Assembly: GCF_054482525.1 (NCBI RefSeq)
Contig: NZ_CM137006.1
Reading direction: 5' to 3' (one strand)
Length of the DNA stretch: 64,000 nucleotides
Part shown: positions 4,510-60,269 of the stretch, piece by piece
How the letters are laid out: each line of letters opens with the position of its first letter
Position numbering within the stretch: position 1 is the stretch's first letter
Notes under the pieces: generated by a model
The model's database searches: none
The model's input: the letters and a program-made list of their open reading frames with translations, nothing else
What the model was told of the DNA's origin: nothing
Made by a program: the position numbers and the translations under genes

Positions 4510-4513
<4 letters not shown>
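3626..4513 (+). CDS. motA: flagellar stator protein MotA
   Basis: 295-aa ORF, GTG start, multi-pass membrane protein matching MotA. Confidence 0.95.
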
Positions 4514-7929: not shown

Positions 7930-7955
7930 TTCTCCCGATTTCCTCAATTGCAATG

Positions 7956-7986
7956 AACCCGATGATCTGCGCATCGGGTTTTTTAT
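7956..7986 (+). terminator. rho-independent terminator after cheW
   Basis: stem AACCCGATG/CATCGGGTT followed by T-run. Confidence 0.6.
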
Positions 7987-8015
7987 TTCAATTTAGCGGT
8001 AGGTGGCATCTGCAA

Positions 8016-8042
8016 TAAAGTTTCCCCCCTCCTTGCCGATAA
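8016..8042 (+). promoter_or_regulatory. sigma28 (FliA) class III promoter of the tar-tap-cheRBYZ operon
   Basis: TAAAGTTT - 11 nt - GCCGATAA is an exact match to the sigma28 consensus, about 30 bp upstream of the tar ATG. Confidence 0.8.
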
Positions 8043-13727: not shown

Positions 13728-14372
13728 ATGATGCAACCATCAATCAAACCTGCTGACGAGCATTCAGCTGGCGATATCATTGCGCGCATCGGCAGCCTGA
13801 CGCGTATGCTGCGCGACAGTTTGCGGGAACTGGGACTGGATCAGGCCATTGCGGAAGCGGCGGAAGCCATCCCCGATGCGCGCGATCGTTTGTACTATGT
13901 TGTGCAGATGACCGCCCAGGCTGCGGAGCGGGCGCTGAACAGTGTTGAGGCGTCACAACCGCATCAGGATCAAATGGAGAAATCAGCAAAAGCGTTAACC
14001 CAACGTTGGGATGACTGGTTTGCCGATCCGATTGATCTTGCCGACGCCCGTGAATTGGTAACAGACACGCGGCAATTTCTGGCAGATGTACCCGCGCATA
14101 CCAGCTTTACAAACGCGCAACTGCTGGAAATCATGATGGCGCAGGATTTTCAGGATCTCACCGGACAGGTTATTAAGCGGATGATGGATGTCATTCAGGA
14201 GATCGAACGCCAGTTGTTGATGGTGCTGTTGGAAAACATCCCGGAACAGGAGTCGCGTCCAAAACGTGAAAACCAGAGTTTGCTTAATGGACCTCAGGTC
14301 GATACCAGCAAAGCCGGTGTGGTAGCCAGTCAGGATCAGGTGGACGATTTGTTGGATAGTCTTGGATTTTGA
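13728..14372 (+). CDS. cheZ: CheY-P phosphatase CheZ
   Basis: ORF 13698..14372; the CheZ N-terminus [12 protein letters not shown] starts at ATG 13728 giving 214 aa. Confidence 0.93.
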
Positions 14373-14379
14373 TTTGTAT

Positions 14380-14460
14380 TGCCTGATGTGGCGTGACTAC
14401 GTCATATCAGGCGGTCGGATAACGCGATGACGCCGCATCCGACAAACGCATACTATGCTT
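14380..14460. repeat. REP-like palindromic element(s) in the cheZ-flhB intergenic region
   Basis: GCCTGATG...CATATCAGGC and GATGACGCCGCATCCGACA motifs typical of REP units. Confidence 0.5.
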
Positions 14461-14573
14461 GATGTGTGGCAGCAAAAGCCCTAAATCCCGCCTGTTTTGC
14501 CCCTTACTCAAACCATTGAACGCTTTGCGCTCTGGCATCATTTACGCTTAATACTCTTTCCAGGATTGGCGAC

Positions 14574-15722
14574 GTGTCTGACGAGAGCGACGACAAAACA
14601 GAAGCCCCCACACCTCACCGACTAGAAAAAGCGCGGGAAGAGGGGCAAATCCCGCGTTCCCGTGAACTGACTTCACTGCTGATTTTGCTGGTGGGCGTTA
14701 GTGTTATCTGGTTTGGCGGTGTGTCGCTGGCCCGTCGATTGTCGGGCATGCTCTCCGCGGGATTGCATTTTGATCACAGCATCATCAATGACCCGAATCT
14801 GATCCTCGGGCAAATTATTCTGCTGATCAGAGAAGCCATGCTGGCGCTGCTGCCGCTGATTAGCGGTGTGGTGCTGGTGGCGCTTATTTCTCCGGTGATG
14901 CTGGGAGGGCTGGTATTTAGCGGCAAATCCTTGCAGCCGAAGTTTTCCAAACTCAACCCGCTACCGGGCATTAAACGGATGTTCTCGGCACAGACTGGCG
15001 CGGAGTTGCTTAAGGCAATTTTGAAAACCATCCTGGTTGGCAGCGTGACGGGGTTTTTTCTCTGGCATCACTGGCCGCAGATGATGCGCTTAATGGCCGA
15101 GTCTCCGATTACCGCCATGGGTAATGCGATGGATCTGGTAGGGCTATGCGCGCTGCTGGTGGTGCTTGGTGTCATTCCAATGGTGGGATTTGACGTCTTT
15201 TTCCAAATCTTCAGCCACCTGAAAAAGCTGCGAATGTCGCGGCAGGATATTCGTGATGAGTTCAAACAAAGCGAAGGCGACCCTCATGTTAAAGGGCGGA
15301 TCCGTCAGATGCAGCGAGCTGCTGCACGGCGTCGGATGATGGCCGATGTGCCGAAAGCGGATGTCATTGTCAATAACCCGACCCACTATTCGGTAGCGTT
15401 GCAGTATGACGAAAACAAAATGAGCGCACCGAAAGTGGTCGCTAAAGGTGCAGGACTGGTCGCGCTGCGCATTCGTGAAATTGGCGCTGAAAATAACGTC
15501 CCGACGCTTGAAGCGCCGCCGCTGGCGCGTGCGCTGTATCGACATGCGGAGATCGGTCAACAAATCCCGGGTCAACTGTACGCCGCGGTGGCGGAAGTGC
15601 TGGCCTGGGTCTGGCAACTGAAACGCTGGCGTCTGGCCGGTGGACAGCGCCCTGTACAACCTACTCATCTTCCGGTGCCGGAAGCCCTGGATTTTATTAA
15701 CGAGAAACCGACCCATGAGTAA
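14574..15722 (+). CDS. flhB: flagellar export apparatus protein FlhB
   Basis: 382-aa ORF, GTG start, matches FlhB. Confidence 0.95.
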   Translation: MSDESDDKTEAPTPHRLEKAREEGQIPRSRELTSLLILLVGVSVIWFGGVSLARRLSGMLSAGLHFDHSIINDPNLILGQIILLIREAMLALLPLISGVVLVALISPVMLGGLVFSGKSLQPKFSKLNPLPGIKRMFSAQTGAELLKAILKTILVGSVTGFFLWHHWPQMMRLMAESPITAMGNAMDLVGLCALLVVLGVIPMVGFDVFFQIFSHLKKLRMSRQDIRDEFKQSEGDPHVKGRIRQMQRAAARRRMMADVPKADVIVNNPTHYSVALQYDENKMSAPKVVAKGAGLVALRIREIGAENNVPTLEAPPLARALYRHAEIGQQIPGQLYAAVAEVLAWVWQLKRWRLAGGQRPVQPTHLPVPEALDFINEKPTHE

Positions 15723-17793
15723 TCTGGCCGCGATGCTGCGCCTGCCCGCAAACCTGAAATCGACACAATGGCAGATCCTTGCCGGACCGATTTTGATCCT
15801 GCTGATCTTGTCGATGATGGTGCTGCCACTGCCCGCATTCATACTCGACCTGCTGTTTACCTTCAATATTGCCTTGTCGATCATGGTGTTGCTGGTGGCG
15901 ATGTTTACCCAGCGCACGCTTGAGTTTGCTGCGTTTCCGACGATTCTGTTGTTTACCACGTTGTTGCGTCTGGCACTTAATGTGGCTTCAACCCGTATCA
16001 TTTTGATGGAAGGGCATACCGGCGCGGCGGCGGCTGGAAAGGTGGTCGAAGCGTTCGGTCACTTCCTCGTTGGTGGCAATTTCGCTATCGGTATCGTGGT
16101 GTTTGTCATTCTCGTGATCATCAACTTTATGGTCATTACCAAAGGTGCCGGGCGTATCGCAGAAGTAGGTGCGCGCTTTGTTCTCGATGGTATGCCGGGT
16201 AAGCAGATGGCGATTGACGCCGACCTTAACGCCGGATTGATTGGTGAAGATGAGGCGAAAAAACGCCGCTCCGAAGTGACTCAGGAAGCCGACTTTTACG
16301 GCTCAATGGACGGGGCAAGTAAATTTGTTCGTGGTGATGCCATCGCCGGGATCCTCATCATGGTCATTAACGTTGTCGGCGGGTTGCTGGTCGGTGTGCT
16401 GCAACATGGCATGAGCATGGGACACGCGGCGGAAAGTTATACGCTATTGACCATTGGCGACGGTCTGGTGGCACAAATTCCGGCGCTGGTGATTTCTACC
16501 GCCGCCGGGGTCATCGTTACGCGTGTCAGCACCGATCAGGATGTTGGCGAGCAGATGGTGAATCAGCTTTTCAGTAACCCAAGCGTTATGTTGTTAAGCG
16601 CCGCCGTGCTCGGTTTACTCGGCCTGGTACCTGGAATGCCGAACCTGGTATTTTTGCTGTTCACTGCCGGATTGCTGGGGCTGGCCTGGTGGATCCGCGG
16701 ACGCGAACAAAAAGCGCCTGCCGAACCAAAACCGGTAAAAATGGCAGAGAATAATGCCGTTGTCGAAGCGACGTGGAACGATGTACAACTGGAAGATTCT
16801 CTGGGAATGGAAGTGGGTTATCGCCTGATCCCGATGGTCGATTTCCAGCAGGATGGTGAGTTGCTGGGCCGTATACGCAGTATTCGCAAGAAATTTGCCC
16901 AGGAGATGGGGTTTCTGCCGCCGGTGGTGCACATTCGCGACAATATGGATCTGCAACCTGCCCGCTATCGCATTTTGATGAAAGGCGTGGAGATAGGCAG
17001 TGGTGATGCTTATCCGGGGCGTTGGTTGGCGATTAACCCTGGTACCGCTGCCGGGACGTTACCTGGTGAGGCGACCGTCGATCCGGCATTTGGCCTGAAT
17101 GCTATCTGGATTGAAAGTGCGCTTAAAGAACAGGCGCAGATTCAGGGGTACACCGTGGTTGAGGCCAGCACGGTGGTGGCAACGCATCTTAACCACCTCA
17201 TTAGCCAGCATGCCGCAGAGCTGTTTGGTCGTCAGGAGGCGCAACAGTTGCTGGATCGCGTCGCCCAGGAGATGCCAAAGCTGACGGAAGATCTCGTTCC
17301 TGGCGTCGTCACGCTCACCACACTGCATAAAGTGCTGCAAAATCTGCTCGATGAAAAAGTGCCGATTCGCGATATGCGCACCATTCTCGAAACGCTGGCG
17401 GAACATGCGCCCATTCAGAGCGATCCACATGAATTAACCGCCGTCGTGCGCGTGGCGTTGGGACGGGCGATTACCCAGCAGTGGTTTCCTGGCAAAGATG
17501 AAGTCCATGTTATTGGCCTTGATACGCCGCTGGAACGTTTGTTACTACAGGCGTTGCAGGGTGGGGGCGGACTGGAGCCAGGGCTGGCGGATCGTTTGCT
17601 GGCGCAAACTCAGGAAGCGCTATCCCGTCAGGAGATGTTGGGTGCGCCGCCAGTATTGTTGGTGAACCACGCGCTGCGACCATTATTGTCTCGTTTCCTG
17701 CGCCGCAGCTTGCCGCAGTTAGTGGTGCTGTCGAATCTGGAACTATCTGATAACCGACATATCCGCATGACGGCGACAATTGGCGGTAAATGA
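15715..17793 (+). CDS. flhA: flagellar export apparatus protein FlhA
   Basis: ORF 15640..17793; the FlhA N-terminus MSNLAAMLRLPANLK starts at ATG 15715 (692 aa), overlapping the flhB stop by 8 bp. Confidence 0.93.
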   Translation: MSNLAAMLRLPANLKSTQWQILAGPILILLILSMMVLPLPAFILDLLFTFNIALSIMVLLVAMFTQRTLEFAAFPTILLFTTLLRLALNVASTRIILMEGHTGAAAAGKVVEAFGHFLVGGNFAIGIVVFVILVIINFMVITKGAGRIAEVGARFVLDGMPGKQMAIDADLNAGLIGEDEAKKRRSEVTQEADFYGSMDGASKFVRGDAIAGILIMVINVVGGLLVGVLQHGMSMGHAAESYTLLTIGDGLVAQIPALVISTAAGVIVTRVSTDQDVGEQMVNQLFSNPSVMLLSAAVLGLLGLVPGMPNLVFLLFTAGLLGLAWWIRGREQKAPAEPKPVKMAENNAVVEATWNDVQLEDSLGMEVGYRLIPMVDFQQDGELLGRIRSIRKKFAQEMGFLPPVVHIRDNMDLQPARYRILMKGVEIGSGDAYPGRWLAINPGTAAGTLPGEATVDPAFGLNAIWIESALKEQAQIQGYTVVEASTVVATHLNHLISQHAAELFGRQEAQQLLDRVAQEMPKLTEDLVPGVVTLTTLHKVLQNLLDEKVPIRDMRTILETLAEHAPIQSDPHELTAVVRVALGRAITQQWFPGKDEVHVIGLDTPLERLLLQALQGGGGLEPGLADRLLAQTQEALSRQEMLGAPPVLLVNHALRPLLSRFLRRSLPQLVVLSNLELSDNRHIRMTATIGGK

Positions 17794-18185
17794 TGAGAAC
17801 CTTATTAGCAATATTATTGTTTCCGCTGCTGGTGCAAGCCGCCGGGGAGGGGATGTGGCAGGCGAGTAGTGTGGGCGTTACGCTGAATCACCGTGGTGAG
17901 TCGATGTCGTCAGCGCCTCTTTCTACGCGACAACCTGCTGCAGGATTGATGACGCTGGTGGCGTGGCGTTATCAGCTTATCGGCCCGACACCTGCAGGAC
18001 TGCGGGTTCGCTTGTGTTCACAATCTCGTTGTGTCGAATTAGAAGGGCAGAGTGGAAACACCGTGGCCTTTTCCGGTATACCGGCGATAGAACCGTTGCG
18101 ATTTATCTGGGAAGTGCCTGGCGGTGGGCGGTTAATTCCGCCGCTAAAGGTACAACGGAATGAAGTGATTGTGAATTATCGTTAA
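17793..18185 (+). CDS. flhE: flagellar protein FlhE
   Basis: 130-aa ORF with signal peptide; start overlaps the flhA stop (TGATG). Confidence 0.9.
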   Translation: MRTLLAILLFPLLVQAAGEGMWQASSVGVTLNHRGESMSSAPLSTRQPAAGLMTLVAWRYQLIGPTPAGLRVRLCSQSRCVELEGQSGNTVAFSGIPAIEPLRFIWEVPGGGRLIPPLKVQRNEVIVNYR

Positions 18186-18189
18186 TGAT

Positions 18190-18223
18190 AAAAAAGCCGA
18201 TGTCTGCCATGACATCGGCTTTT
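18190..18223. terminator. bidirectional rho-independent terminator between convergent flhE and argS
   Basis: stem GCCGATGTC/GACATCGGC flanked by an A-run on one side and a T-run on the other. Confidence 0.6.
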
Positions 18224-18237
18224 GCCGTATAACGCGA

Positions 18238-19971
18238 TTACATACGCTCTACTGTCTCAATACCCAGCGTATCCAGACCCAGTTTCAGCGTCTTCGCCGT
18301 CAGTTGTGCCAGTTTCAGACGGCTGTTACGCACTTCTTCGTTTTCTGCGCTGAGGATCGGGCAGTGCTCGTAGAAGCCAGAGAACAGACCAGCCAGATCG
18401 TACAGGTAAGCACACATCACATGCGGTGTGCCTTCACGGGCAACCACGGTGAGGGTTTCTTCAAACTGCAGCAGGCGAGCTGCCAGTTGCGCTTCACGAT
18501 CTTCACGGATGATTACCGGAGCTGCAGCCAGTTGCTCTTCGTTAATTTCTGCTTTACGGAACACGGACAATACACGCGTGTAAGCATACTGCATGTATGG
18601 CGCGGTATTACCCTCAAACGCCAGCATGTTGTCCCAGTCGAAGATGTAGTCGGTAGTGCGGTTTTTGGAGAGATCCGCATATTTCACCGCACCAATACCA
18701 ACCGCGTTAGCCAGTTTTTCCAGCTCGTCAGCTGGCATGTCCGGGTTTTTCTCTGCCACCAGACGGCGTGCGCGTTCCAGGGCTTCATCCAGCAGATCGG
18801 CCAGTTTCACTGTACCGCCCGCGCGGGTTTTGAACGGTTTGCCGTCTTTACCCAGCATCATGCCGAACATGTGGTGTTCCAGCGGTACGGATTCCGGTAC
18901 ATAGCCTGCTTTGCGGACGATCGCCCACGCCTGCATCAGGTGTTGATGCTGACGGGAGTCGATGTAATACAGCACGCGATCGGCATGCAGTGTTTCATAA
19001 CGATATTTCGCACAGGCGATATCAGTGGTGGTGTAGAGATAGCCACCATCTTTCTTCTGAATGATCACGCCCATCGGTTCGCCTTCCTTGTTTTTGAACT
19101 CATCAAGGAATACGACGGTCGCGCCTTCGCTTTCTACTGCGAGACCTTTGGCTTTGAGATCTGCCACGATACCCGGCAGCATCGGGTTATAGAGGCTTTC
19201 GCCCATCACGTCATCACGGGTCAGCGTCACGTTGAGACGATCGTAGGTGATCTGGTTCTGCGTCATGGTGATGTCGACCAGTTTGCGCCACATCTCGCGG
19301 AAATATTCGTCACCGCTTTGCAGTTTTACCACGTAGTTACGTGCACGCTCGGCAAACTCTTCATCTTCATCGTAATGCTTTTTCGCATCGCGGTAGAAAC
19401 CTTCAAGGTCAGCCAGCTCCATTTCACCGGCGTTTTCCTGCTGCTGCTTTTCCAGCCATGCAATCAGCATACCGAACTGAGTGCCCCAGTCGCCGACGTG
19501 GTTTGCGCGAATCACTTTGTGACCGAGGAACTCCAGAGTACGAACTGCTGCGTCACCAATAATGGTAGAGCGCAGGTGACCAACGTGCATCTCTTTCGCC
19601 ACGTTTGGTGCAGAGTAGTCAACCACAATGGTCTGTTTTTCTGGCGTAGCAACACCGAGACGATCGGACGCCAGCGCCTGCTGAACATGTTCAGCCAGGA
19701 ATGCCGGATCAAGGAAAATGTTGATAAAGCCAGGACCCGCGATCTCAACTTTGCTGGCGATACCGTTAAGATCCAGATGAGTCAGCACCTGCTCTGCTAA
19801 TTGTCGCGGTGCCATACCCAGTTTTTTAGCAACTGCCATCATGCCGTTAGCCTGATAGTCGCCGAACTGAACTTTTGCTGACTGACGAACCTGCGGTTCG
19901 CAATCCGCAGGCGCGCCTGCCGCAATCATGGCCTGACGGACTTTTTCTGAGAGAAGAGCCTGAATATTCAC
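18238..19971 (-). CDS. argS: arginine--tRNA ligase
   Basis: 577-aa ORF matching ArgRS, including the HVGH motif. Confidence 0.96.
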
Positions 19972-20757: not shown

Positions 20758-21513
<756 letters not shown>

Positions 21514-21559
21514 TTTTTACCGTTGCATCATGTCGCCCAATATGATGCTTGCTCGTACC

Positions 21560-21592
21560 AGGCCCCTGCAATTTCAACAGGGGCCTTTTTTT
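21560..21592 (+). terminator. rho-independent terminator after cutC
   Basis: stem AGGCCCCTG/CAGGGGCCT followed by T7. Confidence 0.65.
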
Positions 21593-25617: not shown

Positions 25618-27765
<2,148 letters not shown>

Positions 27766-33780: not shown

Positions 33781-33987
33781 ATTGTCATTCCATTGAAATA
33801 GATACGAATATACGTAATAGCATAAAAAATTTATTTTTTCAGGAGGCGCAATATGTATTTTTATTACGCATTTCTTCGCTGAATATGTAATATTTAAATA
33901 TTTGCTTCCAATATAACCTGTAGAATAAATTATACTGCGCCATTTTTCAGATCATCGGGACGCCTCGCAAGTTTTCTTCATCCTTCG

Positions 33988-35834: not shown

Positions 35835-36620
35835 TTAGCTGGCCTGTTTTTTCATCATACTGAGAATAAATAACAGTGCCGCGCATAGCACCACCGACGG
35901 GCCTGCTGGTGTATCGTAAAATGCGGAAAAGGTTAAACCGCCAGTCACTGCCACCATTCCCACCAAAACAGCGACACCTGCCATCTGTTCCGGCGTGCGG
36001 GCAAAGCGACGTGCAGTAGCAGCAGGAATAATCAGCAACGAAGTAATAATCAACGCGCCGACAAATTTCATCGCTACACCAATCGTCAATGCCGTCACCA
36101 GCATCAACAACAATTTCACGCGCTGTAATTTCACACCATCAACAAACGCCAGATCCGGGCTAATCGTCATCGACAGCAAATTGCGCCATTGCCAGAACAA
36201 AATCGCCACCACGATGACCACGCCAATTGCAATAGAGATGAGATCTTCTGGCGTCACTGCCAGCAAATCACCGAACAGGTAAGCCATCAAATCAACACGA
36301 ATATTAGACATCAGACTAACGACCACCAGGCCCAGCGACAGGGCACTGTGCGCCATAATCCCTAATAACGTGTCGATCGCCAGCTGTGGACGCTTCTCCA
36401 GCCATACCAGACCGCCCGCCAGCAGCAGCGTAACTGCAATCACCGCATAGAATGGATTCACGTCCAGCAACAAACCAAACGCGACACCAAGTAATGAGGC
36501 ATGGGCCAGCGTATCACCGAAATAAGACATACGACGCCAGACCACAAACGAACCCAGCGGACCCGCGGCACAGGCGAGCATGATCCCGGCTAACCAACCG
36601 GGAAATAATAATTCAATCAT
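35835..36620 (-). CDS. znuB: zinc ABC transporter permease ZnuB
   Basis: 261-aa ORF matching ZnuB. Confidence 0.95.
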
Positions 36621-40840: not shown

Positions 40841-41449
40841 GCCGTGTGATAAGTTCAAGTTTGCTTCAGAAGATTCGAAATCTGTTGAACTATCATTGAA
40901 CTGTAGGCCGGATGAGGCGTTTTGAACTGCACCCCAAATGTTGGACATAATCTGACATCTGAAGGTGCAGTTTATGAAACATTCATTTGAAGTAAAACTT
41001 GCCGCTGTAAATCACTACCTGGCTGGTCATGCAGGCATCATTTCTACGGCAAAACTCTTTCAACTTTCTCACACCAGCCTCTCACACTGGATTAATCTTT
41101 TTCTTCTTCACGGTCCTCGGGCACTGGATTGCAGACACAAGCGTAGCTATTCTCCTGAAGATAAACTTTGCGTGGTTCTTTATGCTCTCGGGCATTCTGA
41201 GTCTCTACCCCGGGTAGCTGCCCGGTTTAACATTCCCAGCCACAACACGGTTAAAAACTGGATAAAAGGCTACCGCAAATCTGGTAATGAGGCCTTTATC
41301 AGGCGCAGGAAGGAGAAAAGCATGACCCGTTCTGATGATACCCATGAAAACGAGGCAAACATGACGCCGGAAGAGATGAAGAATGAGCTGCGTTATCTTC
41401 GCGCAGAAAATGCATATCTGAAAGCCATGCAGGAGCATCTCCTGGAAAA

Positions 41450-42354
<905 letters not shown>

Positions 42355-52585: not shown

Positions 52586-53762
52586 TTAAGCCGCAACCGT
52601 CTGTGTGACGGATTTACGCTGGCCTCCATGGGCAGAAACGACGAGTCCCGCCGCTTGTAATTCCAGTATGCCCTTGCGTTTGATGTTGAGCGCCGCGTTG
52701 ATATCGCGGTCATGTTCAACTCCACACTCTGGACACTGCCAGATGCGCTTATGTAATGGCATCTCCGACATTTTGTGACAGCAGCAGTGGCAGGTCTTCG
52801 AACTGGCGAACCATTGATCCAGTTTCACCAGATGCACACCTTTCTCTGTTGCTTTGTATTCCAGTTTTGTGATGAATCCAGACCATCCAGCATCGCCTAT
52901 CGCACGAGCCAGATGGTGATTTTTCATCATATTTGCCGTTTTCAATGTCTCGACAATTACCGCTTGGTTTTCGTCAACAATTGCGCGAGATAACTTGTGC
53001 TGGAAATCGGCACGGGCACTGGCTACCCGTTCGTGAACGGCTGCAAGTTGTATTCTGGCTTTGCGCCTGTTTGCGCTCCCTTTTTTCTTACGGGACAGTG
53101 CTTCCTGCTTCCTGCTTCCGGCGCAGGTTGCGACTTGCATTGATTAGGTGGCGGGGACTGGCAATTTTATTGCCGTCCGATTTGATGACAAAATGCGCCA
53201 GCCCCATATCCAGCCCTGTCACATTTGATATCAGTGCGGGCTTTGCCGGCGCTTCCATCCCGTCGTCACAGAGTAACGACGCGTAGTATTTCCCGGTTGC
53301 GCTGCGGCTCAACGTGATACTTTTCAGCATTCCCGTAATTTCACGATGTAAACGCGCTTCAATCGGCAAGATTTTCGGTATTTTTATCGCACCATCAAGG
53401 ACTTTTATGCCAACACAATGATAGCTCGATTGTCTGCCGTGTTTACTTTTAAAGGTTGGTTTACCTGCTTTCAGTTTCGGATTGAAAAAGTTAGAAAAAG
53501 CCACGTCGAGGTTAATTACCGCCTGCTGCAACGCAATAGAATCATATTCTTTAAGCCATCCATACCGGCGGGATTTCTTCGCCACTGCAAGCAGTGGTTT
53601 GAGGTCTTTACGCGGGTTTAAATTTACGCGGTGCCGCTGGTAAGAATGTTTCTTGATATGCAGAGCTTTGTTGTACGCAAAACGCACTGCACCGAACTGG
53701 GCGTTGATAAATTCAGCCTGTTCTGGTGTCGGATAGATGCGTACTTTTGTTGCTCTTAACAT
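52586..53762 (-). pseudogene. tnpB: tnpB (IS605 OrfB / RNA-guided nuclease family), split by a frameshift
   Basis: ORF 53088..53762 (N-terminal part, HTH and RuvC-I GLDMGL) and ORF 52586..53140 (RuvC-II IVETL, zinc finger CHCC...CPEC, RuvC-III DRDINAA) are adjacent and in different frames; the break coincides with three tandem copies of a 7-bp unit at 53100..53120. Confidence 0.75.
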
Positions 53763-53818
53763 AATCAGCGCTCATTGATATAATGCTTTTATTTTAACAC
53801 TTTAGGTGAATATATCAA

Positions 53819-54232
53819 TTGAGTAATCATGATGATTTACTGGCGGGATTTCTCCGCAAACGACACAGTGTCAGTAAGCTGGTTGTGCACCTTATTTTTA
53901 CGACAAAGTATCGACGCAAACTATTCGACAGTCAGATGATCGCTCAGTTGCGTGAGGCTTTTGGCTCCGCTGCGGCAAAGCTTGAATGCGAAATTATTGA
54001 GATGGACGGGGAGCCAGACCATGTACACCTGCTGGTTGCCTACCCGCCAAAACTGGCGGTCAGTGTGATGGTCAATAATTTAAAATCGGTATCATCACGT
54101 TTGCTACGCCAGCAGAACGCGCATTTACGTATGCAGAGTAAAACGGGGCTTTTGTGGTCGAGATCGTACTTTGTCTGTAGCACCGGAGAGGCAACGATTG
54201 AAACGCTCAGAGCCTACGTTCAGAGTCAGTAA
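53819..54232 (+). CDS. tnpA: IS200/IS605-family Y1 (HUH) transposase TnpA
   Basis: 137-aa ORF with HVHLL (HUH) motif and C-terminal catalytic Tyr context WSRSYF; apparent TTG start 9 nt downstream of an AGGTGA ribosome-binding site. Confidence 0.7.
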   Translation: MSNHDDLLAGFLRKRHSVSKLVVHLIFTTKYRRKLFDSQMIAQLREAFGSAAAKLECEIIEMDGEPDHVHLLVAYPPKLAVSVMVNNLKSVSSRLLRQQNAHLRMQSKTGLLWSRSYFVCSTGEATIETLRAYVQSQ

Positions 54233-54373
54233 ACACCTGATTGATCTTTAAAGCCCTGCGGGCTTTTCGCCTTATATCCCCGCCCGCATTGGGCGAGGGT
54301 TTACGGCGTTTTTCGCTAAGCAATGACTACCCTGTTTCGCTTGCATCTCCGGTGAGTTTTGCCACCCTTATAA

Positions 54374-57120
<2,747 letters not shown>

Positions 57121-59945: not shown

Positions 59946-60032
59946 AACATTTAAGCTAATGACCCCCACGCTTTTTATTGACCATTTTGCACGCAAACTG
60001 GAAAACCTGGCGTCGTCATCTATTCTTAAAGG

Positions 60033-60135
60033 GCAAGGCAACTAAGCCTGCATTAATGCCAACTTTTAGCGCACGGCTCTCTCCCAAGAGCCATTTCCCT
60101 GGACCGAATACAGGAATCGTGTTCGGTCTCTTTTT
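60033..60135 (+). ncRNA. sdsR: small RNA SdsR (RyeB), sigmaS-dependent Hfq-binding sRNA
   Basis: GCAAGGCAACTAAGCCTGCATTAATGCCAACTTTTAGCGCACGGCTCTCTCCCAAGAGCCATTTCCCTGGACCGAATACAGGAATCGTGTTCGGTCTCTTTTT matches the SdsR sequence from memory and ends in a terminator hairpin plus U-run; -10 element CATCTATTCT with C at -13 just upstream. Confidence 0.85.
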
Positions 60136-60269
60136 ATCTGTTAAAAGCCAGAAGCATTCCTTTCGCTGACTTTATAGTCAACCATAACACACACTCTACT
60201 GTCTGAGTCCAGCATTTTTTAACATTCCTGTTAAGATTATGTGATCTTTAGCGCGGGAGGAAAATATTG

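What the first reader, a model, noticed from the sequence alone, without database searches (positions are those of the whole stretch)
15715..17795. Overlapping start/stop junctions suggest translational coupling in the flhBAE operon
The flhA ATG (15715) lies 8 bp inside the end of flhB, and the flhE ATG (17793) overlaps the flhA stop (TGATG). Similar ATGA overlaps occur at motA/motB (4510..4513), cmoB/cmoA and znuC/znuB.
Basis: seen in the sequence. Interest (0 to 1): 0.15.

Follow-up and report, generated by a model that had tools for sequence, protein, structure and literature searches.

The report
Short gene overlaps in flhBAE operon
The start codons of flhA and flhE do overlap the ends of the preceding genes, but these are ordinary, already catalogued overlaps in E. 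coli. Existing data suggest that only flhE, not flhA, may depend on translation of the gene before it.

Summary
The window is an E. coli chromosome segment, about 99.99% identical to strain PCN033.

**Overlaps**
- flhB 14574-15722 and flhA 15715-17793 overlap by 8 nt (ATGAGTAA).
- flhA and flhE 17793-18185 overlap by 1 nt (TGATG).
- motA/motB, cmoA/cmoB and znuC/znuB overlap by 4 nt (ATGA).
- These three overlap lengths are the commonest in E. coli. The same K-12 pairs are already listed in a published table (Huber 2023).

**Conservation**
- flhB/flhA overlaps in 79 of 79 Enterobacterales species, by 8 nt in 75 of them.
- flhA/flhE overlaps in 63 of 75 species.

**Start codons**
- An N-terminal peptide MSNLAAMLR confirms the flhA ATG.
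- K-12 and most E. coli have TAATG at flhE, so only the ATG equivalent to 17793 is available there.

**Coupling (partly supported; never tested directly on this operon)**
- In published cell-free data on isolated start regions, flhA initiates on its own, more strongly than flhB.
- The export gate needs nine FlhA per FlhB, so flhB cannot set flhA output.
- flhE gives no stand-alone initiation signal in the same data, yet FlhE is roughly equimolar with FlhA in cells. A GGAGG ribosome-binding motif is selected inside the last flhA codons in most genera. This fits coupling at flhA-flhE.

The finding is already known and of low interest.

The parts
14574..15722 (+). flhB coding sequence (GTG start, TAA stop)
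   Evidence: RefSeq annotation of the near-identical PCN033 record; translation contains the NPTH autocleavage motif.
15715..17793 (+). flhA coding sequence (ATG start, TGA stop)
   Evidence: The start is supported by the N-terminal peptide MSNLAAMLR plus Ribo-RET (BL21) and INRI-seq evidence in K-12, whose junction sequence is identical.
17793..18185 (+). flhE coding sequence (ATG start; signal peptide MRTLLAILLFPLLVQA)
   Evidence: The start at -1 relative to the flhA stop is the one shared by 54 of 75 species and by K-12.
15715..15722 (+). 8-nt flhB/flhA overlap ATGAGTAA (flhA codons 1-3 contain the flhB stop)
   Evidence: ATGnnTAA is conserved in 75 of 79 Enterobacterales species. The 61-nt junction is identical in 5272 of 5386 E. 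coli genomes.
17790..17795 (+). ATGATG at the flhA/flhE junction: flhA stop TGA 17791-17793, annotated flhE ATG 17793-17795, extra in-frame ATG 17790-17792
   Evidence: K-12 and the sampled variant strain A2 carry AAATAATG, which has no ATG at the -4 position. 3085 of 4156 matching genomes differ from the window's junction.
15702..15704 (+). Only Shine-Dalgarno-like element before flhA (GAG, 10 nt before the ATG); weak
   Evidence: Pairing energy with the 16S 3' end is -3.0 kcal/mol, against a window median of -5.85. Other genera have -5 to -7.4.
17782..17786 (+). Shine-Dalgarno-like GGCGG inside flhA codons Gly690-Gly691, 6 nt before the flhE ATG
   Evidence: -6.1 kcal/mol here; most genera have GGAGG at -8 to -11.5. 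Gly690 is GGA in 74% of species against 9.5% at 53 other conserved Gly codons.
15662..15668 (+). Predicted 5' arm (UACUCAU, inside flhB) of a 7-bp helix pairing with the flhA AUGAGUA at 15715-15721
   Evidence: Minimum-energy and ensemble fold: P(unpaired) of the AUG is 0.00-0.18. The helix is Escherichia-specific, with no conserved structure in 60 species. Prediction only.
17782..17827 (+). Predicted hairpin enclosing the flhE Shine-Dalgarno motif and AUG (arms 17782-17796 and 17814-17827)
   Evidence: -13.8 kcal/mol, z = -1.3 against shuffles. No covariation support. Also predicted in the K-12 INRI-seq construct. Prediction only.
18192..18223 (.). 13-bp hairpin flanked by A and T runs between flhE and convergent argS; probable bidirectional terminator ending the operon
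   Evidence: Terminator scan.
4510..4513 (+). motA/motB ATGA overlap
   Evidence: motAB is listed among translationally coupled E. coli pairs in the literature.
26586..26589 (-). cmoA/cmoB ATGA overlap
   Evidence: The isolated yecE start region gives 0 RPF in INRI-seq.
36617..36620 (-). znuC/znuB ATGA overlap

Best explanation
These are canonical short start/stop overlaps (-8, -1, -4) of a compact operon. They are kept by selection in Enterobacterales, and the two flh junctions behave differently.

**flhB/flhA.** flhA is translated mainly by ribosomes that bind its own start region directly. This lets FlhA exceed FlhB, as the 9:1 stoichiometry of the export gate requires. Ribosomes finishing flhB may add a modest boost. 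At termination the start codon lies only 2 nt behind the ribosome's P-site codon, and in Escherichia those ribosomes would also melt a predicted helix that covers the AUG.

**flhA/flhE.** flhE translation probably does depend on ribosomes terminating flhA. A ribosome stopping at UGA/UAA sits on the small hairpin that holds the flhE ribosome-binding motif and AUG. It would either re-initiate on the AUG that shares one base with the stop codon, or open that site for a new ribosome. The motif encoded in the last flhA codons would help. The expected result is roughly one FlhE per FlhA.

Shown: the geometry, its conservation, the start sites, the stand-alone initiation data and the protein abundances. 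Inferred: the dependence of flhE on flhA, and the mechanism.
For: **Geometry and annotation:**

**Conservation**
- flhB/flhA overlaps in 79 of 79 species, by 8 nt in 75 and by 1 nt in 4.
- flhA/flhE overlaps by 1 nt in 54 of 75 species and by 4 nt in 9 of 75.

**Selection at synonymous sites**
- FlhA Ala2 is GCT, which supplies the T of the flhB TAA, in 31 of 32 species, against 9% GCT at 52 other conserved Ala codons.
- Gly690 is GGA, which makes GGAG(G), in 74% of species, against 9.5% at 53 other conserved Gly codons. It ranks first of the 53.

**Stand-alone initiation (INRI-seq Table S2; isolated -30..+153 start regions in the PURE system)**
- flhA 36-62 RPF, flhB 15-21, flhE 0 in all five replicates.
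- Template abundances are 178, 291 and 91 CPM.

**Stoichiometry and abundance**
- FlhA forms a nonamer; FlhB is present as a single copy.
- Proteome mass fractions are FlhA 2.0-3.5e-4, FlhE 3.2-4.1e-5 and FlhB not quantified. This gives a FlhA:FlhE molar ratio of about 1.3-1.5.

**Other**
- No sigma-70-like promoter lies inside the operon, and a terminator follows flhE.
- General literature: coupling is most efficient at -4..+3 nt, and the mechanism (RNA unfolding or re-initiation) is unsettled.
Against: - No experiment on this operon was found.
- INRI-seq non-detection is common: about 30% of annotated starts are missed overall. It could reflect the artificial transcript rather than dependence on flhA.
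- Most genera have a strong GGAGG before flhE, which could drive independent initiation there.
- The steady-state FlhA:FlhE ratio also depends on protein stability and on mass-spectrometry bias.
- The INRI-seq flhA construct lacks the upstream helix arm, so it cannot exclude masking in the full mRNA.
- Neither predicted structure has covariation support or an unusual folding energy.
Confidence: 0.5

Rival explanations
1. Both junctions are tightly coupled by termination-reinitiation. The same ribosomes read flhB, then flhA, then flhE, so all three proteins are made in fixed proportion.
For: - Overlaps of -8 and -1 lie in the range where re-initiation is efficient in reporter tests of native E. 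coli pairs.
- The flhA Shine-Dalgarno motif is among the weakest in the window, at -3.0 kcal/mol.
- The flhA start region is more structured than most in full context, costing 12.1 kcal/mol to open against 6.5 when upstream sequence is removed.
- The overlap is conserved in 79 of 79 species.
Against: - The isolated flhA start region initiates without flhB and more strongly than flhB itself. Ribo-RET evidence in BL21 is also listed.
- The required FlhA9:FlhB1 ratio, and FlhA being detected while FlhB is not, are incompatible with a 1:1 hand-over being the main source of FlhA.
- Increasing overlap beyond -4 lowers coupling efficiency in synthetic tests.
Confidence: 0.15
2. There is no functional coupling at either junction. 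The overlaps are by-products of genome compaction and are locked in because two reading frames share the bases. Each gene is initiated independently.
For: - Overlapping ORF pairs in E. coli are as variable in relative translation as non-overlapping pairs (p = 0.06).
- Across 1,695 species the FlhB-FlhA pair has a median spacing of +13.5 nt, so overlap is not needed for function.
- A strong GGAGG at ideal spacing precedes flhE in most genera.
- 12 of 75 species have small positive flhA-flhE gaps.
- No conserved RNA structure was found.
Against: - flhE shows no stand-alone initiation in E. coli, yet FlhE is present at about the FlhA level.
- No species among 79 has opened a gap between flhB and flhA, although the stop moved to the -1 position in four loci from three genera.
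Confidence: 0.3
3. The annotated starts are wrong. flhA would begin at the in-frame GTG 15640 or at Met7 (15733), and flhE at ATG 17790, which would change or remove the stated overlaps.
For: - The flhA frame is open back to GTG 15640 in Escherichia.
- ATGATG offers a second flhE start in this strain.
- Met7 is conserved in many genera.
Against: - The peptide MSNLAAMLR (residues 1-9) was identified, and the annotated start has Ribo-RET and INRI-seq evidence.
- INRI-seq lists no alternative start in flhA, flhB or flhE (no occurrences in Table S3).
- An in-frame stop lies 3-21 nt before the flhA ATG in 35 of the 79 loci, including Salmonella, Citrobacter and Enterobacter.
- K-12 and the sampled variant strain have TAATG, with no ATG at the -4 position.
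Confidence: 0.03

Closest known systems
Canonical short co-directional gene overlaps (-4 NTGA, -1 TAATG/TGATG, -8 NTGNNTGA) of prokaryotic operons
   Same: All six overlaps in the window belong to these three classes. The K-12 equivalents (flhB-flhA -8, flhA-flhE -1, motA-motB -4, cmoA-cmoB -4, znuC-znuB -4) are listed in Huber et al. 2023, Supplementary Table S2. The classes are described.
   Different: Nothing differs in kind. The 8-nt class is the least common of the three.
Experimentally coupled E. coli pairs with -1 or -4 overlaps (hyfHI, ydbH-ynbE, menDH, trpBA, motAB)
   Same: Same geometry, with an internal Shine-Dalgarno motif in the upstream gene's last codons (flhE). The partners belong to one machine.
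   Different: Dependence of the downstream gene on upstream translation has been measured for those pairs but not for flhBAE. FlhA and FlhB are needed at 9:1, unlike the near-equimolar partners typical of coupled pairs.
RNA-unfolding type of coupling (downstream ribosome-binding site masked by pairing with upstream coding sequence, as in ribosomal protein operons)
   Same: In Escherichia the flhA AUG is predicted to pair with flhB codons 47-53 nt upstream. The flhE motif and AUG are predicted to lie in a local hairpin.
   Different: These are predictions only. There is no covariation, the folding energies are no better than shuffled sequence, and the structures are not conserved outside Escherichia.

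Membership tests
Canonical short start/stop overlap classes (-8, -4, -1) | Co-directional neighbours whose start codon lies 1, 4 or 8 nt inside the upstream gene's end | tested here: met
   Sequence and annotation.
Translationally coupled gene pair | Both genes lie on one mRNA, with no promoter or terminator between them | tested here: met
   No promoter-like site in 14300-18300 and no convincing internal terminator. The only strong hairpin follows flhE. The operon is described as flhBAE. The scan covers the sigma-70 consensus only.
Translationally coupled gene pair | Stop-start spacing within the range where coupling is efficient (about -8 to +6; best -4 to +3) | tested here: met
   -8 and -1; ranges.
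Translationally coupled gene pair | The downstream start region is poorly active on its own | tested here: inconclusive
   Published INRI-seq: flhE 0 RPF in 5 of 5 replicates (feature met); flhA 36-62 RPF, higher than flhB (feature not met). The constructs carry only 30 nt of upstream sequence.
Translationally coupled gene pair | Blocking translation of the upstream gene lowers translation of the downstream gene at constant mRNA level | not testable with these tools
   No such experiment on flhBAE was found.
RNA-unfolding coupling | A conserved or covarying structure masks the downstream ribosome-binding site | tested here: not met
   RNAalifold finds 0 pairs at both junctions. The named flhE hairpin shows no excess covariation: 91-273 of 500 shuffles reach the observed values.
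flhBAE flagellar export operon of Enterobacterales | Gene order flhB-flhA-flhE downstream of the che genes, with the proteins identified | tested here: met
   100% and 99.99% DNA identity to annotated E. coli records; same order in 75 species.

The most novel reading that the evidence does not exclude
Escherichia may have shifted both flh junctions from motif-driven towards structure-dependent coupling. Compared with other Enterobacterales it has weaker Shine-Dalgarno motifs: GAG before flhA, and GGCGG instead of GGAGG before flhE. It also has lineage-specific helices that cover the flhA AUG (15662-15668 with 15715-15721; both arms differ from the other genera) and the flhE motif and AUG (17782-17796 with 17814-17827; here the A-to-C change that weakens the motif completes a GGCGG/CCGCU stem). 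This would make FlhA and FlhE output track translation of the preceding gene more tightly in this genus.
Probability: 0.15. Interest if true: 0.25.

Novelty: already known. Interest (0 to 1): 0.08.

Why it matters
It matters little beyond annotation quality. The overlaps are standard operon architecture and are already tabulated for K-12.

One modest point could be tested. The two junctions of a single operon seem to use the same kind of overlap for different purposes: an independent, higher output for the nine-copy FlhA, and a probably coupled, roughly 1:1 output for FlhE. If confirmed, this would be a clean natural example that overlap geometry alone does not predict coupling.

Tried and rejected
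**Conserved RNA structure.** RNAalifold returned no pairs for the flhB/flhA junction (60 species) or the flhA/flhE junction (35 species). Counting pairs for the E. coli flhE hairpin gave values no better than shuffles or slid controls.

**Folding energies.** 200-nt junction windows fold no better than shuffled sequence, with z = -0.48 and +0.04.

**Masking of the flhA start region as a family trait.** Across 79 species the opening energy is ordinary (median 9.9 kcal/mol), and upstream sequence contributes only 0.9 kcal/mol.

**FlhB-FlhA fusion by +1 frameshift.** I considered this because flhA is in the +1 frame and that frame is open for 96 nt upstream in Escherichia. I rejected it because 35 of the 79 loci, including Salmonella, Citrobacter and Enterobacter, have a stop 3-21 nt before the ATG in that frame.

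**Alternative starts.** GTG 15640, Met7 and ATG 17790 were all rejected.

**Literature that could not be used.**
- Li et al. 2014 and Minamino et al. 1994 are not held.
- The Burkhardt 2017 supplements lack the flh genes.
- The Saito 2020 supplements are not held.
- In vivo Ribo-RET in the K-12 strain used for comparison by the INRI-seq study is zero for all flagellar genes in its Table S2, so it is uninformative.
Full report
**Identity of the region.** The 4.5 kb around the finding is 100% identical to E. coli PCN033 and two other strains, and 95-99% identical to essentially all 5,426 complete E. coli genomes. The whole window is collinear with PCN033 at about 99.99% identity, apart from a 1,431-bp insertion far from the finding. 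RefSeq annotation gives flhB 14574-15722, flhA 15715-17793 and flhE 17793-18185, followed by convergent argS. K-12 MG1655 is annotated with the same two overlaps.

**Check of the observation.**
- At 15715-15722 the sequence is ATGAGTAA. ATG is the flhA start and TAA is the flhB stop, so the overlap is 8 nt.
- At 17790-17795 the sequence is ATGATG. The flhA stop TGA is at 17791-17793 and the annotated flhE ATG at 17793-17795, so the overlap is 1 nt.
- ATGA overlaps are present at motA/motB, cmoA/cmoB and znuC/znuB.
- In the window, 6 of 43 same-strand neighbour pairs overlap: four at -4, one at -8 and one at -1.

This matches the genome-wide picture.
- About 15% of E. coli ORF pairs overlap.
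- -4, then -1, then -8 are the enriched classes.
- 707 of 2,987 unidirectional E. coli pairs lie between -8 and +6.
- The K-12 counterparts of exactly these pairs are listed with these distances in a published supplementary table.

It is a real non-random feature of bacterial genomes, and it is neither new nor special to this locus.

- *flhA.* A 2026 N-terminomics data set lists the peptide MSNLAAMLR (residues 1-9) for K-12 FlhA, with Ribo-RET (BL21) and INRI-seq support for the annotated ATG. The K-12 junction sequence is identical to the window. In 35 of 79 loci, including Salmonella, Citrobacter and Enterobacter, an in-frame stop lies 3-21 nt upstream of the ATG, so the Escherichia-specific open frame back to GTG 15640 is not a conserved extension. 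INRI-seq reports no alternative start in flhA, flhB or flhE.
- *flhE.* K-12 and the sampled variant strain A2 carry AAATAATG, where only the -1 ATG exists. The window's TGA allele, which creates the extra ATG at 17790, is identical over the 61-nt junction in 1,071 of the 4,156 genomes that match it. In 54 of 75 species the -1 position is the start.

**Conservation.** I analysed 80 species-representative loci spanning Enterobacterales, with FlhA identity of 80-99%.
- flhB/flhA overlaps in all 79 scorable loci, as ATGnnTAA in 75 and as TGATG/TAATG in 4. No locus has a gap.
- In the 39-locus subset with a 692-codon flhA, FlhA codon 2 supplies the T of the flhB stop. Where it is Ala it is GCT in 31 of 32 species, against 9% GCT at 52 other conserved Ala codons (maximum 31%).
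- flhA/flhE overlaps in 63 of 75 loci. The rest have gaps of +1 to +12 nt, and Photorhabdus lacks flhE.
- In the same subset, the Gly690 codon of FlhA is GGA in 74% of species, against 9.5% at 53 other conserved Gly codons. This creates GGAG(G) six nucleotides before the flhE ATG. That is a clear signature of selection for a ribosome-binding motif inside flhA.
- Across bacteria in general the FlhB-FlhA pair has a median spacing of +13.5 nt, so the overlap is a trait of this lineage rather than of the genes.
- Within E. coli the 61-nt flhB/flhA junction is invariant in 5,272 of 5,386 genomes.

**Does overlap mean coupling here?** No experiment on this operon was found. The general literature is divided.
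- Reporter tests on native pairs show strong, distance-dependent coupling.
- Overlapping pairs are as variable in relative translation as other pairs.
- Depleting the ribosome-recycling factor does not alter coupling, which favours fresh initiation plus melting of RNA structure.
- A 2025 review states that the mechanism is not settled.

**Locus-specific evidence, flhB to flhA.**
- INRI-seq places each gene's -30..+153 region on its own transcript, in a purified translation system with retapamulin. Any signal is therefore initiation without upstream translation.
- flhA gives 36-62 RPF in five replicates and flhB gives 15-21. The templates are present at 178 and 291 CPM. Per template, the flhA start region is about 4.6 times more active than that of flhB.
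- The export apparatus contains a FlhA nonamer and a single FlhB.
- In absolute proteomics FlhA is quantified at 2.0-3.5e-4 of protein mass, while FlhB is not detected.
- A one-to-one hand-over of ribosomes from flhB therefore cannot be the main source of FlhA.

Some features leave room for a facilitating effect.
- The flhA Shine-Dalgarno motif is weak, at -3.0 kcal/mol against a window median of -5.85.
- In the full mRNA, AUGAGUA (15715-15721) is predicted to pair perfectly with UACUCAU (15662-15668) inside flhB, stacked on a GC-rich hairpin. P(unpaired) of the AUG is 0.00-0.18.
- The opening cost falls from 12.1 to 6.5 kcal/mol when upstream sequence is removed.
- The INRI-seq construct lacks that upstream arm, so it does not test this masking.
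- However, the helix exists only in Escherichia. No conserved structure is found in 60 species, and across species the flhA start region is no more structured than an average gene.
- Geometry (my inference): when a ribosome terminates at the TAA, its P site is on 15717-15719, only 2 nt from the AUG. This mirrors the +2 shift needed at an ATGA overlap.

**Locus-specific evidence, flhA to flhE.**
- The isolated flhE start region gives 0 RPF in all five INRI-seq replicates, although its template is present at 91 CPM.
- In cells, FlhE is 3.2-4.1e-5 of protein mass. Given the protein sizes, this is about 0.7 FlhE per FlhA.
- A local hairpin is predicted to hold the GGCGG motif and the AUG (17782-17796 pairing with 17814-17827; -13.8 kcal/mol). 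It is also predicted in the K-12 INRI-seq construct. A ribosome terminating on the overlapping stop would occupy its 5' arm.
- These facts fit real coupling at this junction, by unfolding, re-initiation or both.

Caveats apply.
- About 30% of annotated starts are undetected by INRI-seq overall.
- The hairpin is not statistically unusual (z = -1.3) and has no covariation support.
- Most other genera carry a strong GGAGG that could act independently.

**The other overlapping pairs in the window.** In the same data the downstream genes vary: znuB 43-60 RPF, cmoB 23-45, motB 5.5-10, yecE 0. Overlap does not predict stand-alone activity. motAB coupling is cited in the literature.

**Operon boundaries.** No sigma-70-like promoter lies within 14300-18300. 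A 13-bp hairpin flanked by A and T runs (18192-18223) lies 7 nt after flhE and probably terminates both flhBAE and argS.

**Verdict.** The feature is already known and its interest is low.

Noticed in passing
window 40924-42354: A 1,431-bp IS3-family insertion sequence lies between lpxM and pykA. It has an HTH transposase ORF at 40965-41495 and an rve integrase ORF at 41600-42322. It is absent from the otherwise 99.99%-identical PCN033 record, and 5 nt of flanking sequence match on both sides.
   Followed up: partly
window 52586-54244: An IS200/IS605-like ISEc46 element lies between yebE and ptrB. Its tnpA is at 53819-54244 (+), and its TnpB (RNA-guided endonuclease family) gene at 52586-53762 (-) is annotated as a frameshifted pseudogene.
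   Followed up: no
window 21285-21592 (+); 59995-60139 (-) and 60036-60135 (+); 7949-8026 (-): Four Rfam matches reach gathering score. MicL sRNA lies inside the 3' end of cutC. The antisense pair SraC/RyeA and SdsR/RyeB overlap each other. C0465 lies between cheW and tar.
   Followed up: no
window 18186-18237: K-12 has yecT and yecV between flhE and argS. This strain has only 52 nt there, holding a 13-bp hairpin that looks like a bidirectional terminator.
   Followed up: partly
window 33851-33916 (+): The RefSeq CDS for the 21-aa stress protein YobI begins on ATA, five nt after a strong CAGGAGG motif. The ATG two nt downstream is out of frame and would give only a 9-codon ORF.
   Followed up: no
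window 15625-15754 and 17769-17840 versus loci L003-L082: Escherichia differs from other Enterobacterales on both arms of a predicted helix masking the flhA AUG (CCTACTCAT with ATGAGT, against CCTGAAAAT with ATGGCT elsewhere). It also has GGCGG instead of GGAGG before flhE, which weakens the ribosome-binding motif but completes a stem with CCGCT in the signal-peptide codons.
   Followed up: partly
In INRI-seq the isolated flhC and cheR start regions give 0 RPF.
   Followed up: no
L002 8976-8979 (window about 56458-56461): exoX and ptrB are convergent and their 3' ends overlap by 4 nt.
   Followed up: no
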